64,000 nt of DNA from a plasmid: the NCBI RefSeq assembly GCF_056746865.1, contig NZ_JBWKMP010000004.1. One strand, given 5' to 3'. Each line of letters begins with the position of its first letter. Position 1 is the stretch's first letter. The position numbers were made by a program. Shown here one piece after another: positions 9,001 through 27,000 of this stretch.

Positions 9001-12000
9001 TAATTCAGGAGCATTGTTATCAGACCAAATATTTTTCATTCCATTAAATAGTCTTGTAGGGGATAAAATGAATTACGATGAAATAACGAAAATCACTGCA
9101 GAACGTATTAGCGACTACATGACTGAAGCGGTTAATACAGACTCTAAATCTGTTGCGGAAATGTTTCATAACGCTGCATGGGGAGTGCTATCATTGTGGT
9201 TTGAACTCGTCACAAAAATAGATCTGGATATACATAAAAAGAACAGGTATGCAAGTTATGATTTTAGAAGAAAAATCGAAATGCAGCATGAAGAGTTTCA
9301 GAAAATGACAGAGCGTGAGCAAGTGCCTTTATTGAAATTGCCTGAATAACAGAGACAGTGCAAACGATTATTTCATAATAACGATTATGTAATGACTGGT
9401 AAGAAAATAACTTGATTGAGTTCCCTTTATCCAGCCTGATAGTGGATAAAGGGAACTCAATAATAATTGAATTAATTTATTAGCTTCATCGCATTTTTTT
9501 TGGTCTCTTCATCACTTTTTTGCTCTTGTTGTGAAGAGGATTGAGTGACTATTGAAGAATTAAAATCGGCCATCTCTTTTGGAAATAGCGATCTCAATAT
9601 ATTCACGATATCTGAAAATGTGGTTTCTTTCGTCAGCAGCTCACATAAAAGGAAAGGGGTCCGGGGATCTTGTCTGTATAAGGCCAGACCTGCCGTCAGT
9701 GCGGCCCGGTTAAGGCGGCTTCGTTCCCCTTGCGGGATACTGTCCAGTGTATCACAAACAATTTTATCTGTTTGATTTACATCTGGATTTAGTTTGAAGG
9801 CAATGGTTCTGCGCTTGTCCATCATTAATTACCTATGAGATACATACCGTTAACTAAATCATATTGAGAGTTATTGGTTTTGAAAAAACGTTCATCACGA
9901 ATCTGTGTGTGTTTTTTTACTGCATCGCATATTAATTCTGCGCCACCGCCTATAACCATAACATGAGTATAACCAGAAAATTCATTGAGCGTATTTAATA
10001 CACGTTGCTCAAGTTTACGAAGTGCTTCATTCATTGCTTCGGTGACTATTGATATTTTGTTCTCATCATTAATTCGTTGCTTCAGATAGTTATTATCTTT
10101 TCTGTGAATGATTATATCGTCAGCAAGATAGCTACTTCCTTTTGTTCTCGCAAGAGAAAGGGCATCTTTTACTGCAGATGTAACCAGAGAGACACCAAGA
10201 GATGAGTCTCCGTATATTTTACTGATCCCCGATAATTTCCCCATTACCTGAGAAATATCTAATGTGGTGCCCCCGAGATCTATAATTAATAAAGAATCTA
10301 ACTCATCCAGTTCTTGTAGAACTTCATAACCTGCCGGTATAGATTCAGGCATGACTTTTACATCTTTTATTGTGAATGTATCCCCGCCATTTAATGTAAT
10401 TTTTTTCCGGAAGTTTGCTTTCTTACGCTCAATATTTTCCGTATTGGGTTGGTTATTTCTGTCGTAATACTCTGTCAGAGGAAGTGTGCAAACAATATCC
10501 ACTTCGCTTACCGGCAGACCACTGGTCAGTAAGGCGTGATGCACTGCAACGACATTAACGTCGCTGTATTGCCATGCGATATTGGTTGTGACTACAGCAT
10601 CCGGGCTGATTGGATCAAATGAATACTGTTCGCCGTTCAGTGTGTAGTTAAAGACCTTTTTATCACCAAAAGAGACTGCCCACTCGCGTTTGAAGCTGTT
10701 CGGGCTAATGTGCTGTTTAATTGTTCCGTCGCTTTCCTGCCACTGTAGTTTGATGTTTGTTGAACCGTCATCAATGAATACCAACATTTATAAAACTCCT
10801 TATGGTGTTTTTTTGGTGTGTGTTTGGGTATGTTTTGGGTTTTAAGTGGGTTTGTTTGTCAAGTTTACCCCATTTCAACCATCAATCAATGATTATTTGT
10901 CTTGTTTTGGTGTTTTATTGGGTTGGGTATGGGTTGTTTTTGGGTTTTGTTTGGCGGGTAACAAAAGATGTCGCCGGGCTCCTCTTTTTACTGCGCCGGC
11001 TGACGCGGCGCGGCAGGAACGCTGCCTGTGGTCAGTGTCCCGCGTCCGGCCGGGCACGGGACGGGCGCTTTTACCGCTCCCGGCTGGCGTTGGTGACAGT
11101 GTACGCCAGCCCGTCGCCCTTTTCTGATGAACGCCCTTCAAGCCGCTTTCGCGGCATATCCTCGCCGTCAAAAAGACGACGGCTGCGGTATTCCACGGTC
11201 GGCCTGACCCGTTACCGGACGCGGTGAACAGCCCACAGGCAGCGGGGAACGGGCACCACAGGGGTGCCCTCCCGGTGCCCTCTGTAAGAGAAGGAGTGCT
11301 GTTATGTCCCGTTTTATCCTGGGTGACTGCGTGCGTGTTATGGCCACGTTTCCGGGCAATGCTGTCGATTTCATCCTCACCGACCCGCCGTATCTCGTCG
11401 GTTTCCGTGACCGTTCCGGGCGCACCATCGCCGGCGATAAAACCGATGAATGGCTGCAACCAGCCTGTAATGAAATGTACCGCGTACTCAAAAAAGACGC
11501 GTTAATGGTGAGCTTCTATGGCTGGAACCGCGTCGATCGCTTTATGGCCGCCTGGAAAAATGCGGGATTCAGCGTTGTTGGTCACCTGGTCTTCACCAAA
11601 AACTACACATCGAAGGCCGCATATGTGGGCTATCGCCACGAATGTGCCTACATCCTGGCAAAAGGCCGTCCACGTCTGCCACAAAACCCGCTGCCGGACG
11701 TGCTGGGCTGGAAATATTCGGGCAATCGCCATCACCCGACGGAAAAGCCCGTTACCAGCCTGCAACCGCTGATTGAGAGCTTCACACACCCGAACGCAAT
11801 TGTGCTGGACCCGTTTGCAGGCAGCGGCTCAACCTGCGTCGCCGCCCTCCAGTCCGGACGCCGGTATATCGGTATCGAGCTGCTTGAGCAGTATCACCGT
11901 GCCGGGCAGCAACGCCTTGCCGCCGTGCAACGGGCCATGCAGCAGGGGGCCGCGAATGATGACTGGTTTATGCCGGAGGCTGCGTAAATGAACTATGCAG

Positions 12001-24000: not shown

Positions 24001-27000
24001 GATTACTGCTGCCCTGATTATTGTCTGTTTTGTTGTTCTCCTGCTTATGCCTTTTCCGGGCGTCCCCCTGGCGGGGCGGGCTGTCGTGAACGGAGCCAGC
24101 GAAGCTGTCTCCGCCCTGGCGGGCTTCCATCCCTGACGCAAAAACCCGGGTTTGCAGCGACCGGAACGGTCGCGCCACCCTTGTCGCGCCGTGGCCTGCG
24201 CTCCCGGCATCCCGGCAAAAGACGCCGGGATGTAAGGAGCAACGCCGTTTCGCAAACCGCGCTTCACGTCGTTGCGGCGGGTCCCTGCCCGTTGTTCTGT
24301 CCGGTGCCATTCACCTGTTTAAGCCCCTGTCGCCGGGGGCATAGACAGCCACAACCTGCCGCACTGACTGTCCAGGGTAAATGAACAGCCCACAAAATTT
24401 TTTACCCAAAACCCGGTAAAAAATTTTGCGTTCTGCCCAGGACAGGTGCGTCAGGCCGTGGCAGTGATGCCCCTTGCGGCGAAGGTTCTCAAACAGGTGA
24501 TGGTGAATACCGGAGGGAACAAAAGGCAGGTCCCCGCAAAACGTCAAAACCGCGGCTCCCGAAACTCAACAGATGATGGGGGCTGAAAACATCAGATACA
24601 GGAGGAATTATGAGCGCATTTTCTTTTAACACCACTTATCAGCCAACAGGCGATCAGCAGAAAGACGCAATCGCACAAATCGGGATCATGCAGAATCGTG
24701 CTGTTCAGGCAAATCTTGCATATCAGAGCTGCCGGGATTCTGGTGCACTCTTTAAGGTGCTCCACCAGGTCAATAATGAGCTGCATGACTTACTGGATAG
24801 CCTGGAGAATCATACTCCTCTTGTCAGAAAAAACGCTGATGAGTTGATCGCGCTGTTACTGCTTTTCACTCGGCAGGTTGGTCAGTCCCGAACTGACCTG
24901 ATTTGATGGTCCTTCCCCTCGGAATTGTTGTCTTTTTGTTAACGATAACCGAGGGGGGATGATATTAAGCGAAAAAACTTTTATTAATTTTATGCCTTCA
25001 TAAAGGAGTTACTGTTATGCGATTAGCTTCCCGTTTTGGTCGATATAATTCTATTCGCCGTGAGCGCCCGTTAACGGATGACGAATTAATGCAGTTTGTT
25101 CCATCTGTCTTTTCTGGTGATAAACATGAATCCCGGAGTGAGCGTTATACATATATCCCAACCATCAATATCATCAATAAGTTACGTGATGAAGGTTTCC
25201 AGCCATTCTTTGCCTGTCAGAGTCGGGTTCGTGATTTGGGACGCCGCGAATACAGTAAACATATGTTACGTCTTCGCAGGGAAGGGCATATTAACGGGAA
25301 AGAAGTTCCTGAAATTATCCTGCTTAATTCACATGATGGTTCATCCAGTTATCAGATGATCCCAGGAATTTTTCGTTTTGTCTGCACAAATGGCCTGGTG
25401 TGTGGGAATAATTTTGGCGAAATCCGCGTTCCACATAAAGGTGATATTGTCGGGCAGGTTATTGAGGGAGCGTATGAAGTGCTCGGTGTCTTTGATAAAG
25501 TCACTGAAAATATGGAGACAATGAAAGAGATACATCTTAACAGTGACGAACAACATTTATTTGGCAGAGCTGCATTGATGGCCAGGTACGAAGATGAAAA
25601 TAAAACGCCAGTGACGCCAGAACAAATAATTACTCCCCGCCGTTGGGAGGATAAACAGAACGATCTCTGGACAACCTGGCAGCGGGTTCAGGAGAATATG
25701 ATAAAAGGTGGATTATCGGGGCGAAGTGCCTCCGGTAAAAATACCAGAACAAGAGCCATTACAGGCATTGACGGTGATATCCGAATCAACAAAGCATTAT
25801 GGATGATTGCCGAACAGTTCAGGGAGTGGAAGTCATGATAATATAAGTAAAGCCCCGAAAAATTTTTCGGGGCTTTACTTATATTATCATCCTGCGGCAT
25901 TGCTGTGTCGTCTGATATGCCTCAATTTCATCAACTGGCTTTTCGGTAGTCTGTAAATATTGTGCCCGCGAAAAATGGTCTGGCAGGAGGCTGCGCAGTT
26001 ACCGGATATATATAAGATGGGATCCCGCTTTGCGGGGCTTCGGCCAGTCAGCATTATCACTCATATGATATTTTTGTGTGTGGCCTTCCATGCCGCTGTC
26101 GCGGCATAACCGGTATTTGACAATGTATACAATATTAATTTTTCTGCACACTGTTAATTTGGGAAAGTGATTTCTTCGTGGTCGGAACCCGGATGCCTTT
26201 ACTGCTCTTTATCCAGGTATAAATCCGGTAAACCTCTGATGCGTAGGCAAGACGTCTCTGGTTCTGGCGTTCGGTCTTCCTGAATCCGGCATTGTATGCA
26301 CCAACGGCCTCCCAGGAGACGCCCCATTTTTTAAAGGCTATTGCCAGATAATAAGCACCGGTATAAATGTTCATACAGGGATCTGTTGTCAGATGTTCCG
26401 GCTTAATTCCATAGCGGGCCAGTTCGTTAAAATGCTGGGAATCTACCTGCATCAGTCCGCTGCCATATCCCGTTACCGGATTAATACCGATGGCATTAAC
26501 CCGGTAACGGGATTCTTTCCATGATATCGCTCTCAGTAAATCCGGGTCTATTTTGTAATCCCGACCTGCAAGATCAAAGCAATCGGCGGCTTCGCAGATC
26601 CCATTTATAAACATCAGGCAGATTGCTAACATCCATTTTTTCATTTTTCCACCTCTGGTGACTTTATCCGTAAATAATTTAACCCACTCCACAAAAAGGC
26701 TCAACAGGTTGGTGGTTCTCACCACCAAAAGCACCACACCCCACGCAAAAACAAGTTTTTGCTGATTTGCTTTTTGAATCATTAGCTTATGTTTTAAATA
26801 ATGTATTTTAATTTATTTTACATTATTAAATAGGGGCGTTGACGACCCTATGGCGACCCTATGGCGACCCTTGTTAGGGTCAGTACTGACAAATTTTATG
26901 AAAAACATTTGGATATATTAGGGCCGCCCCTAGCAGCGCCGTGCGTTTTTTTATAGTATGCCCCTAGGGGCGCTGCTAGGGGTGCTCTTCTTTTTTCAGA

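What the first reader, a model, noticed from the sequence alone, without database searches (positions are those of the whole stretch)
11304..26644. Leading region organised as an anti-defence/establishment island with several unassigned ORFs
All leading-region genes are on the + strand, so they are transcribed from the strand that enters the recipient first. They include two orphan methyltransferases (DPPY-type and NPPF-type) with no cognate endonuclease, klcA/ardB, ssb, psiB, psiA and a ParB-like gene. Interleaved are ORFs I cannot assign (11988-12209, 12657-13484, 14793-14984, 16022-16252, 16304-17665, 19715-19954, 24610-24906). By position these are candidate anti-restriction, anti-CRISPR or anti-SOS factors.
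Basis: inference. Interest (0 to 1): 0.5.

Follow-up and report, generated by a model that had tools for sequence, protein, structure and literature searches.

The report
Known R100-type plasmid leading region
This is the well-studied "leading region" of an R100/F-type resistance plasmid, the first DNA to enter a new host, where it is read from hairpin promoters on single-stranded DNA to make anti-restriction, anti-SOS and related proteins. The idea is correct but already published, and most of the "unassigned" genes belong to families already catalogued as uncharacterised leading-region genes.

Summary
The region is the leading region of an R100-lineage IncFII plasmid: most proteins are 100% identical to R100, and more than 5000 plasmid records match. 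The F oriT nic motif lies on the minus strand at 26728-26744, so the transferred strand is the template for all 17 plus-strand genes.

They form five operons. Each follows a very stable T-strand hairpin that is 92-97% identical to ssDNA promoters validated in F and pESBL (ssp3, ssp2 and three Frpo/ssp1 copies).

"Anti-defence island" is right but published (Samuel 2024; Couturier 2023; Wen 2025; Fraikin 2026).

The seven "unassigned" ORFs are under purifying selection (dN/dS 0-0.43):
- YubE.
- YchA, whose true start is 12708.
- A 63-aa ORF and a 76-aa ORF.
- YdbA (DUF3560).
- YfjA (DUF905; homologue structure 2HJJ).
- A 98-aa ORF in the ygeA slot that is unrelated to F YgeA.

Additions:
- In most relatives, DUF3560 is fused to the neighbouring NPPF methyltransferase, so it is probably that enzyme's partner.
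- The ParB-like gene (herB) is broken by a 59-bp Tn10 excision scar at R100's Tn10 site.

No ORF function was demonstrated. Low novelty.

The parts
26728..26744 (-). oriT nic-region motif GTGGGGTGT|GGTGCTTT. It defines the minus strand as the transferred (T) strand, which enters 5' to 3' towards lower coordinates.
   Evidence: Exact match on the minus strand. The position of the nick within the motif comes from my knowledge of F oriT and TraI.
26135..26782 (-). SLT lytic transglycosylase gene (F gene X / ygfA). It is the only minus-strand gene here, and the T-strand is not its template.
   Evidence: PF01464 in relatives. In F, YgfA is made only after conversion to dsDNA.
24610..25838 (+). Operon 5: a 98-aa ORF (24610-24906) in the ygeA slot, followed by ygeB/DUF932 (25017-25838).
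   Evidence: YgeB is 97% identical to F. The 98-aa ORF is unrelated to F YgeA. Its family is confined to enterobacterial plasmids.
24140..24578 (-). Class 1 ssDNA promoter hairpin, copy C (F Frpo1/ssp1a position), which forms in the T-strand.
   Evidence: Direct-repeat family. Folding energy is -100.8 kcal/mol per 300 nt. It is 93% identical to F Frpo2 and 89% to F Frpo1.
23363..23695 (+). hok/sok (flm-type) type I toxin-antitoxin locus.
   Evidence: Rfam sok at 88.9 bits. A Hok CDS is annotated in identical plasmids.
19136..23257 (+). Operon 4: ssb (19136-19663), yfjA/DUF905 (19721-19954), interrupted herB/yfjB ParB-like gene (20015-22038), psiB (22107-22541) and psiA (22538-23257).
   Evidence: Pfam. 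Orthologues are 84-98% identical to F. YfjA matches PDB 2HJJ at E 1.2e-20. The F orthologues are zygotically induced.
21390..21457 (.). Tn10 'nearly precise excision' scar inside herB: a 9-bp target duplication CGCTCTGCC (21390-21398 and 21449-21457) flanking a 50-bp remnant made of the two IS10 ends (21399-21448).
   Evidence: A 59-bp insertion relative to the intact allele. R100 carries Tn10 at exactly this site with the same duplication.
18664..19102 (-). Class 1 ssDNA promoter hairpin, copy B (F Frpo2/ssp1b position, upstream of ssb).
   Evidence: MFE -143.5 kcal/mol, z = -11.9. It is 93% identical to F Frpo2 and 100% identical to copy C.
16022..18275 (+). Operon 3, absent from F and pESBL: a basic 76-aa ORF (16022-16252), ydbA/DUF3560 (16304-17665) and ydcA, the NPPF class I SAM methyltransferase (17712-18275).
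   Evidence: DUF3560 is fused to a YdcA-like methyltransferase in 94 of the 100 long relatives. The AlphaFold2 model has pLDDT 94.3.
15926..16027 (-). Rfam AS-pc01 antisense RNA, which overlaps the ribosome-binding site and start of the 76-aa ORF.
   Evidence: 89.7 bits against a gathering score of 79.
15353..15790 (-). Class 1 ssDNA promoter hairpin, copy A. This is a third Frpo copy, upstream of operon 3.
   Evidence: Folding energy is -97.1 kcal/mol per 300 nt. It is 92.7% identical to F Frpo2 and 89% to copies B and C.
13902..14984 (+). Operon 2: klcA/ardB (13902-14327), the DUF1380-like ycjA/yubJ (14374-14796) and a 63-aa ORF (14793-14984, overlapping the preceding gene by 4 nt).
   Evidence: dN/dS of the 63-aa ORF is 0.06-0.16.
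13485..13901 (-). Class 2 ssDNA promoter hairpin (ssp2).
   Evidence: MFE -108.9 kcal/mol, z = -5.6. It is 95.9% identical to the pESBL klcA upstream region, 94% to the ardA upstream region, and 96.2% to F. Function in F and pESBL is described.
11304..13484 (+). Operon 1: the M.EcoGIX-type DPPY methyltransferase (11304-11987), yubE (11988-12209), the DUF1380 gene ycgB (12223-12657) and ychA (12708-13484).
   Evidence: The methyltransferase is 92% identical in protein sequence to the pESBL homologue and 98% to F's.
10963..11303 (-). Class 3 ssDNA promoter hairpin (ssp3), upstream of the first methyltransferase.
   Evidence: MFE -95.3 kcal/mol, z = -5.5. It is 95.9% identical to the pESBL M.EcoGIX upstream region and 97.4% to F.

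Best explanation
The interval is the leading region of an R100-lineage IncFII conjugative plasmid.

How it works:
1. Transfer starts at the oriT nick, near 26736 on the minus strand.
2. The minus (T) strand enters the recipient 5'-first, running from the SLT gene towards the partition genes.
3. The T-strand is the template for all 17 plus-strand genes, so they can be transcribed before the complementary strand is made.
4. The genes form five operons. Upstream of each lies a 300-440-nt imperfect inverted repeat that folds in the T-strand into a long hairpin and serves as a single-stranded-DNA promoter.
5. There is one class 3 element (ssp3), one class 2 element (ssp2) and three class 1 (Frpo/ssp1) copies.
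6. These promoters give a burst of 'zygotic' expression that stops when the DNA becomes double-stranded.

What the products do:
- An M.EcoGIX-type methyltransferase that acts on single-stranded DNA.
- KlcA/ArdB, which acts against type I restriction.
- A second adenine-type methyltransferase, made together with its probable partner, the DUF3560 protein.
- SSB, PsiB and PsiA, which block SOS induction.
- hok/sok, a post-segregational killing system.
- A set of conserved small proteins of unknown role.

Shown here: the anatomy, the orientation, the hairpins and the homology.
Taken from published work on F and pESBL orthologues: promoter activity and anti-restriction activity.
Inferred: the roles of the unassigned ORFs.
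For: Identity of the element:
- The interval matches more than 5000 plasmid records, and 100% of it matches pT156A.
- Most proteins are 100% identical to R100.

Orientation and layout:
- The nic motif is on the minus strand.
- Gaps within operons are at most 60 nt. Gaps between operons are 417-1352 nt.

Hairpins:
- A 300-nt sliding DNA fold of the T-strand averages -48.6 kcal/mol (sd 15).
- Only five windows fall below the published -75 kcal/mol threshold. All five are intergenic and lie directly upstream of the five gene blocks.
- Their z-scores are -5.5, -5.6 and -11.9.
- There are three roughly 440-nt direct repeats.
- The elements are 92-97% identical to F Frpo2, to F ssp2 and ssp3, and to the pESBL promoters mapped by 5' RACE.

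Published function of the orthologous elements:
- Frpo deletions abolish early expression.
- RNA-seq shows induction of up to about 500-fold.
- Deleting ssp2 cuts transfer 5- to 36-fold into recipients carrying EcoKI or EcoGIII, and 21-fold or more into wild E. coli strains.
- M.EcoGIX is a DPPY enzyme specific for single-stranded DNA that protects the plasmid on entry.
Against: - No promoter activity, methylation or anti-defence phenotype was measured for this sequence.
- Simple sigma-70 consensus scans found no convincing -35/-10 pair in any hairpin. Promoter status therefore rests on homology.
- The third Frpo copy and operon 3 have no counterpart in F or pESBL, so their zygotic induction is extrapolated.
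- The herB gene of operon 4 is truncated in this plasmid.
- Class 1 elements also prime complementary-strand synthesis, so being a promoter is not their only role.
Confidence: 0.9

Rival explanations
1. The unassigned ORFs are early-expressed, but they are establishment or host-manipulation factors rather than inhibitors of restriction, CRISPR or SOS. Possible roles include transcription reprogramming, relief of the cost of plasmid acquisition, control of conversion to dsDNA, or regulation of neighbouring genes.
For: - HerB/YfjB, encoded in the same operon as ssb and psiB, binds the host chromosome and reprograms its transcription.
- Deleting F ygeA lowers conjugation even between isogenic K-12 strains, where no defence barrier exists.
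- None of the seven ORFs matches a PADLOC or NCBIfam model, or any PHROG family with an assigned function.
Against: - The families are strongly enriched in leading regions next to known anti-defence genes.
- DUF3560 is physically fused to a DNA-type methyltransferase in most relatives. That fits anti-restriction.
Confidence: 0.4
2. The long hairpins are mainly single-strand initiation (ssi) sites that prime complementary-strand synthesis or stall it. Gene expression from them is secondary.
For: - Frpo was first described as making primer RNA (cited).
- In vivo, conversion starts near ssp1a and ssp1b in a rifampicin-sensitive way, and ssp2 acts as a replication roadblock that UvrD resolves.
Against: - Deleting Frpo abolishes early production of the downstream proteins.
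- The 5' RACE start sites map inside the hairpins.
- The two roles are not mutually exclusive.
Confidence: 0.15
3. Some of the short unassigned ORFs (63, 73, 76 and 98 aa) are not genes but chance ORFs in intergenic DNA.
For: - They are short, and the 63-, 76- and 98-aa ORFs have no Pfam family.
- A plainly spurious Leu-rich ORF lies nearby, created by a hexanucleotide repeat at 18275-18541.
Against: - dN/dS is 0.06-0.29 for the 63-aa ORF and YubE, and no relative has an internal stop or a frameshifting gap.
- The 76-aa ORF shows the same trend (0-0.17), but on only 5-6 substitutions.
- All have Shine-Dalgarno sequences or overlap the upstream gene in a way that implies translational coupling.
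- Gene callers predict them consistently across thousands of contigs.
- The 76-aa ORF has a 46%-identical homologue in the IncI1 plasmid pESBL.
- No dN/dS could be computed for the 98-aa ORF. Its support is the Shine-Dalgarno sequence and full-length family members down to 56% identity.
Confidence: 0.03

Closest known systems
Plasmid R100 (NR1) leading region, NC_002134
   Same: The gene order is the same. Proteins are 95-100% identical for every gene from the first methyltransferase to ygeB, including operon 3 and the 98-aa ORF.
   Different: R100 still carries the 9.2-kb Tn10 inside the ParB-like gene. The window keeps only the 50-bp IS10-end remnant plus the 9-bp duplication.
F plasmid leading region with Frpo1/ssp1a, Frpo2/ssp1b, ssp2 and ssp3 (Couturier 2023, Wen 2025, Fraikin 2026)
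   Same: Operons 1, 2 and 4 and ygeB are orthologous (75-98% protein identity). The hairpin elements are 89-97% identical and sit at the same positions.
   Different: - F lacks operon 3 (76-aa ORF, DUF3560, NPPF methyltransferase) and the third Frpo copy.
- F YgeA (95 aa) is unrelated to the window's 98-aa ORF.
- F herB is intact.
IncI1 pESBL leading region, with six operons driven by ssDNA promoters (M.EcoGIX, klcA, ardA, ssb-psiB and others)
   Same: Operons 1 and 2 and their class 3 and class 2 promoters are 94-98% identical in DNA. KlcA is 100% identical.
   Different: pESBL has ardA and other genes nearer its oriT. It lacks operon 3 and the ygeB block, and its relaxase is MOBP rather than MOBF.
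Anti-defence islands of plasmid leading regions (Samuel et al., Nature 2024)
   Same: The island lies next to oriT on the leading side, its genes are templated by the T-strand, and it combines methyltransferases, SSB, PsiA/PsiB, an anti-restriction gene, a toxin-antitoxin locus and Frpo promoters. The DUF905, DUF1380 and DUF3560 families are listed in that paper's table of prevalent uncharacterised leading-region families.
   Different: The far boundary here is the stbAB/parMR partition locus, not umuCD. No known anti-CRISPR gene is present.

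Membership tests
Leading-region anti-defence island (Samuel 2024) | Lies next to oriT on the side that enters the recipient first. | tested here: met
   The nic motif is at 26728-26744 on the minus strand, and traM, traJ and FinP lie on the other side.
Leading-region anti-defence island (Samuel 2024) | The genes are oriented so that the T-strand is their template. | tested here: met
   All 17 genes between 11304 and 25838 are on the plus strand, and the T-strand is the minus strand.
Leading-region anti-defence island (Samuel 2024) | Contains known anti-defence genes. 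| tested here: met
   KlcA/ArdB, PsiB, PsiA, two orphan methyltransferases and SSB are present.
Leading-region anti-defence island (Samuel 2024) | The distal boundary is often formed by umuCD homologues. | tested here: not met
   The boundary here is stbB/parM at 9472-10787. umuCD is a frequent feature of these islands, not an obligatory one.
Class 1 ssDNA promoter (Frpo / ssi / ssp1) | A long imperfect hairpin forms in the T-strand upstream of genes templated by the T-strand. | tested here: met
   Copy B has an MFE of -143.5 kcal/mol and z = -11.9. There are three copies.
Class 1 ssDNA promoter (Frpo / ssi / ssp1) | Sequence similarity to the characterised F Frpo elements. | tested here: met
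   92.7-93.2% identity to F Frpo2 and 83-89% to F Frpo1 over about 438 nt.
Class 1 ssDNA promoter (Frpo / ssi / ssp1) | -35 and -10 boxes are reconstituted in the stem. | tested here: inconclusive
   Consensus scans found no box pair matching at least 8 of 12 positions. The published boxes could not be read because the figures are not held.
Class 1 ssDNA promoter (Frpo / ssi / ssp1) | Active on ssDNA and silent on dsDNA. | not testable with these tools
   This needs in vitro transcription or reporters in transconjugants.
Class 2 and class 3 ssDNA promoters (ssp2, ssp3; Wen 2025) | Homology to the pESBL elements upstream of klcA/ardA and of M.EcoGIX that were mapped by 5' RACE, plus a stable hairpin. 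| tested here: met
   95.9% identity for each, with folding z-scores of -5.6 and -5.5.
M.EcoGIX family of ssDNA-specific orphan methyltransferases | A beta-class enzyme with the DPPY motif that is a close homologue of M.EcoGIX and has no adjacent endonuclease. | tested here: met
   The DPPY motif is present. The protein is 92% identical to the pESBL enzyme. The neighbouring ORFs are all accounted for.
M.EcoGIX family of ssDNA-specific orphan methyltransferases | Methylates single-stranded but not double-stranded DNA. | not testable with these tools
   Published only for M.EcoGIX itself.
KlcA/ArdB anti-restriction proteins | PF03230 fold and sequence. | tested here: met
   Pfam match. PDB 2KMG at E 1.8e-18 and 2WJ9 at E 3e-7.
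HerB/YfjB (ParB-like host expression reprogrammer) | An N-terminal ParB CTPase domain plus a helix-turn-helix domain. | tested here: met
   PF02195 and PF17762. Residues 1-461 are 92% identical to F HerB.
HerB/YfjB (ParB-like host expression reprogrammer) | An intact D4 dimerisation and nucleoid-binding domain (residues 418-652), which is needed for focus formation. | tested here: not met
   The reading frame leaves the native sequence after residue 461 because of the Tn10 scar.
F YgeA | Sequence homology to the 95-aa F YgeA protein. | tested here: not met
   BLASTP finds no alignment, and hhalign gives a probability of 0.45%. Only the position upstream of ygeB is shared.
DUF905 / YkfF (UPF0401) | Sequence match to the family. 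| tested here: met
   PF06006, PDB 2HJJ at E 1.2e-20 and phrog_8779.
DUF3560-methyltransferase fusion proteins of mobile elements | An N-terminal module of about 450 aa containing DUF3560, followed by an NPPF class I SAM methyltransferase. | tested here: met
   The window has the two parts as adjacent ORFs 46 nt apart. Of the 100 relatives that are at least 560 aa long, 94 carry a YdcA-like domain at the C-terminus.

The most novel reading that the evidence does not exclude
Operon 3 (76-aa ORF, DUF3560 protein YdbA and NPPF methyltransferase YdcA), driven by a third Frpo copy, may encode a second entry methylase that is mechanistically distinct from M.EcoGIX.
- YdbA would supply the nucleic-acid or target-recognition function, or a regulatory function, that the minimal 187-aa catalytic subunit lacks.
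- YdbA has a confidently predicted fold with no solved relative and an almost invariant GHHS loop.
- The pair would be the split form of a fused enzyme that is widespread in phages and integrative elements.

A weaker lead: the 98-aa ORF in the ygeA slot has an invariant YQPTGDQ..AI block that resembles the N-terminal signature of UvrB. It could act as a decoy for a host repair or helicase partner.
Probability: 0.3. Interest if true: 0.45.

Novelty: already known. Interest (0 to 1): 0.15.

Why it matters
Leading regions decide whether a resistance plasmid survives its first minutes in a new host, so they are targets for blocking the spread of resistance. They are also a source of new anti-defence proteins.

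For this backbone the concept, the promoters and several gene functions are already published. The finding therefore adds no new principle.

What remains useful:
- A clean five-operon, five-hairpin map of the R100-type region.
- Evidence that DUF3560 belongs with the second methyltransferase.
- The observation that a very successful plasmid lineage carries a truncated herB. This bears on how dispensable that newly described factor is.

Tried and rejected
- NCBIfam, PADLOC and PHROGs scans of the unassigned ORFs gave no functional family. The only hits were PHROG families of unknown function.
- PDB sequence searches for the DUF3560 protein, YchA and the 98-aa family found nothing meaningful.
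- The YchA AlphaFold2 model is poor because the alignment is shallow (pLDDT 56.5), and its fold search was uninformative.
- A weak PHROG hit suggested a DUF905-like domain inside the DUF3560 protein. BLASTP and hhalign rejected it (probability 0.3%).
- The assumption that 24610-24906 is F ygeA was rejected.
- Consensus -35/-10 scans of the hairpins found nothing.
- The UvrB-like motif in the 98-aa ORF gives E = 6e-4 only in a pairwise comparison chosen after the fact. It is not significant database-wide.
- Accession AP001918 is not in the collections, so NC_002483 was used for F instead.

Full report
**What the region is.** The interval 11304-26644 matches at least 5000 plasmid records. In 722 of them a single place covers at least 80% of the query. 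It is 100% identical to E. coli pT156A, typed as IncFII/IncFIA, MOBF, MPF_F. Every protein from the first methyltransferase to ygeB is 95-100% identical to plasmid R100, and most are 100% identical. The flanks are stbB/parM on the minus strand (9472-10787) on one side. On the other side are the SLT gene (26135-26782, minus strand), traM, and the traJ leader with FinP.

**Orientation.** The exact F nic-region sequence GTGGGGTGTGGTGCTTT occurs once, on the minus strand at 26728-26744. From established knowledge of F oriT, TraI nicks inside this motif and the strand enters the recipient 5' to 3'. The minus strand is therefore the T-strand. It enters in the order SLT, ygeB, and so on to the first methyltransferase, and it is the template for all plus-strand genes. 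All 17 genes between 11304 and 25838 are on the plus strand. In F, the product of that gene appears only after conversion to dsDNA.

**Anatomy: five operons and five hairpins.**
- Gaps within gene blocks are at most 60 nt. Gaps between blocks are 417, 1037, 860 and 1352 nt.
- I repeated the published scan on the T-strand: 300-nt windows with DNA folding parameters. The regional mean was -48.6 kcal/mol (sd 15).
- Exactly five windows fell below the published -75 kcal/mol threshold: 10980-11279 (-93.9), 13560-13859 (-80.1), 15420-15719 (-97.1), 18780-19079 (-101.3) and 24240-24539 (-100.8).
- Each of the five is intergenic and lies directly upstream of one gene block (method).
- Individual folds gave z-scores of -5.5, -5.6 and -11.9 against dinucleotide shuffles.
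- Three of the elements are copies of a roughly 440-nt direct repeat: 15353-15790, 18664-19102 and 24140-24578.
- Copies B and C are 100% identical to each other. All three copies are 92.7-93.2% identical to F Frpo2 and 83-89% identical to F Frpo1.
- The element upstream of klcA is 95.9% identical to the pESBL region upstream of klcA, 94% to the region upstream of ardA, and 96.2% to F ssp2.
- The element upstream of the first methyltransferase is 95.9% identical to the pESBL M.EcoGIX upstream region and 97.4% to F.

**Published function of the orthologous elements.**
- Deleting Frpo1 or Frpo2 abolishes early production of the downstream proteins (PMC9849209).
- In pESBL, six operons are induced up to about 500-fold, with 5' RACE start sites inside the hairpins. 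This defined promoter classes 1, 2 and 3 (PMC12672017).
- ssp2 is also a replication roadblock that UvrD resolves. Deleting it lowers F transfer 5-fold into EcoKI recipients, 36-fold into EcoGIII recipients, and 21-fold or more into wild E. coli strains (bioRxiv 10.64898/2026.01.09.698686).

My consensus scans did not find convincing -35/-10 boxes in any hairpin. Promoter status here therefore rests on homology plus structure.

**Assigned genes.**
- 11304-11987 is a beta-class DPPY methyltransferase, 92% identical to the pESBL enzyme M.EcoGIX and 98% identical to the F homologue. M.EcoGIX methylates single-stranded DNA and protects the plasmid on entry (PMC7736820).
- 13902-14327 is KlcA/ArdB: PF03230, PDB 2KMG at E 1.8e-18, and 100% identical to the pESBL protein.
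- ssb, psiB, psiA and hok/sok are confirmed.
- 17712-18275 is an NPPF class I SAM methyltransferase. Its best matches are M.TaqI and KsgA/Dim1 in the PDB, and type II DNA methyltransferases and mad2 in PADLOC.
- No endonuclease gene adjoins either methyltransferase, because every neighbouring ORF is accounted for.

**The ParB-like gene is broken.**
- Relative to an otherwise identical 654-aa allele, the window carries a 59-bp insertion.
- The insertion consists of a 9-bp direct repeat CGCTCTGCC (21390-21398 and 21449-21457) around a 50-bp remnant formed by two inverted 23-bp IS10 ends (21399-21448).
- R100 has the complete 9.2-kb Tn10 at exactly this position, with the same duplication.
- The window therefore carries the classical 'nearly precise excision' scar of Tn10 (the term is from my own knowledge).
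- At least 916 of the best 5000 matching plasmids carry the scar, including pC15-1a.
- The product keeps residues 1-461 and then runs into 12 foreign residues. It loses most of domain D4 (residues 418-652).
- A 2026 preprint shows that D4 is required for nucleoid association and focus formation of this protein, now named HerB, a host-transcription reprogrammer (PMC13370423).

**The seven unassigned ORFs.** Six of the seven show dN/dS of 0-0.43 against F-like and IncI1 relatives. None has an internal stop or a frameshifting gap, and all have Shine-Dalgarno sequences or overlapping stop and start codons. No dN/dS could be computed for the 98-aa ORF, because no diverged relative of it was among the fetched loci.
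1. 11988-12209 is YubE (PF27407, phrog_4830).
2. 12657-13484 is YchA. Its real start is most likely 12708 (258 aa), and the family is confined to enterobacterial plasmids. The AlphaFold2 model was poor (pLDDT 56.5) and gave no fold match.
3. 14793-14984 is a 63-aa ORF coupled to the DUF1380-like gene upstream. It is 98% identical in F and pESBL, so it belongs to the klcA operon that is zygotically induced in pESBL and F.
4. 16022-16252 is a very basic 76-aa protein (pI 11.9). It has a 46%-identical homologue in the pESBL leading region, and its start is overlapped by the Rfam antisense RNA AS-pc01. Its dN/dS rests on only 5-6 substitutions.
5. 16304-17665 is YdbA, the DUF3560 protein (described below).
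6. 19715-19954 is YfjA (DUF905). It has a solved homologue of unknown function, YkfF (PDB 2HJJ, E 1.2e-20). The F orthologue is 97% identical and was shown to be made from Frpo2 before dsDNA conversion.
7. 24610-24906 sits in the ygeA slot upstream of ygeB/DUF932 but is unrelated to F YgeA: BLASTP finds no alignment, and hhalign gives a probability of 0.45%. The strong F ygeA phenotype cannot be transferred to it.

The DUF905, DUF1380 and DUF3560 families all appear in Samuel et al.'s supplementary table of the most prevalent uncharacterised families enriched in leading regions.

**DUF3560.**
- A full HMMER search found 3891 cluster representatives at E up to 0.001.
- Among the best 150, 100 are at least 560 aa long. 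Of those, 94 carry a C-terminal domain homologous to the window's adjacent methyltransferase YdcA, with the same LEPSAGTG and NPPF motifs. Precomputed Pfam architectures read DUF3560 plus MTS.
- The fused genes sit in phage-like or integrative-element contexts, next to terminase, integrase, RadC or resolvase genes.
- The window's ydbA and ydcA, 46 nt apart and each with its own Shine-Dalgarno sequence, are therefore the split form of one protein. By gene-fusion logic YdbA works with the methyltransferase.
- YdcA is only 187 aa and has no target-recognition domain.
- The AlphaFold2 model of YdbA is confident (pLDDT 94.3, pTM 0.84). It shows small beta-rich domains at both ends and long helical hairpins, and it has no informative solved relative.
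- The most conserved element is a G-Q-P-I-L-x-G-H-H-S loop plus several invariant arginines.
- Operon 3 and its Frpo copy are absent from F and pESBL.

**Verdict.**
- The interpretation as an anti-defence and establishment island is correct. However, it is the thesis of a 2024 Nature paper and of several experimental papers on orthologous plasmids.
- The candidate status of the unassigned ORFs is still only positional, and the HerB result shows that position does not guarantee an anti-defence role.
- Novelty: already known. Interest is low.
- The two points worth keeping are the DUF3560-methyltransferase link and the Tn10-scarred herB in a very widespread lineage.

Noticed in passing
window 21390-21457: There is a Tn10 'nearly precise excision' scar inside the ParB-like herB/yfjB gene: a 50-bp remnant of the IS10 ends plus a 9-bp target duplication. 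It lies at exactly the site where R100 carries Tn10. At least 916 of the best 5000 matching plasmids share it, including pC15-1a.
   Followed up: yes
window 18664-19102 and 24140-24578; locus L006 (pMyJU732_1) 15682-17382: Frpo copies B and C are 100% identical over 439 bp, which suggests gene conversion. In pMyJU732_1 the methyltransferase ydcA is followed directly by the 98-aa ORF and DUF932. The whole ssb-to-hok block is missing, as expected from recombination between these repeats.
   Followed up: partly
window 15926-16027 (minus strand): Rfam AS-pc01, an antisense RNA first described on pHK01, matches above its gathering score. It overlaps the ribosome-binding site and start codon of the 76-aa ORF, so it may silence operon 3 during vegetative growth.
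   Followed up: no
Pairwise BLASTP gives E = 6e-4, but the match is not significant database-wide.
   Followed up: partly
window 18455-18517 (also 23970-24020 and 15145-15186): A perfect (CTGCTA) repeat of 10.5 units creates a spurious Leu-rich ORF at 18275-18541. Related short repeats precede the other two Frpo copies. The repeat is probably variable in length between plasmids.
   Followed up: no
window 10800-10950: GT-rich repeats spaced 11 bp apart lie just upstream of parM/stbA. They look like the parC-type centromere of the partition locus. The overlapping 141-aa ORF (10802-11227) is probably not a gene.
   Followed up: no
window 15472-15503, 18783-18814, 24259-24290 and 23397-23428: A published K. 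pneumoniae chromosomal CRISPR spacer, reported to hit an intergenic region 2-4 times per plasmid, matches all three Frpo copies with 3-5 mismatches. A second published spacer matches hok/sok with 2 mismatches. Host CRISPR systems therefore target this region.
   Followed up: partly
loci L002 6652-8319; L003 13482-15383; L004 13586-15367: In close relatives, group II introns (reverse transcriptase/maturase genes) are inserted in the long inter-operon gaps: after the 63-aa ORF, or between ydcA and ssb. The gaps that hold the hairpins therefore tolerate insertions.
   Followed up: no
locus L002 327-737 (minus strand): A relative carries an AcrIF11-like ADP-ribosyltransferase gene (PF26151) just beyond stbB, outside the T-strand-templated block. 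I did not check whether the window has it.
   Followed up: no
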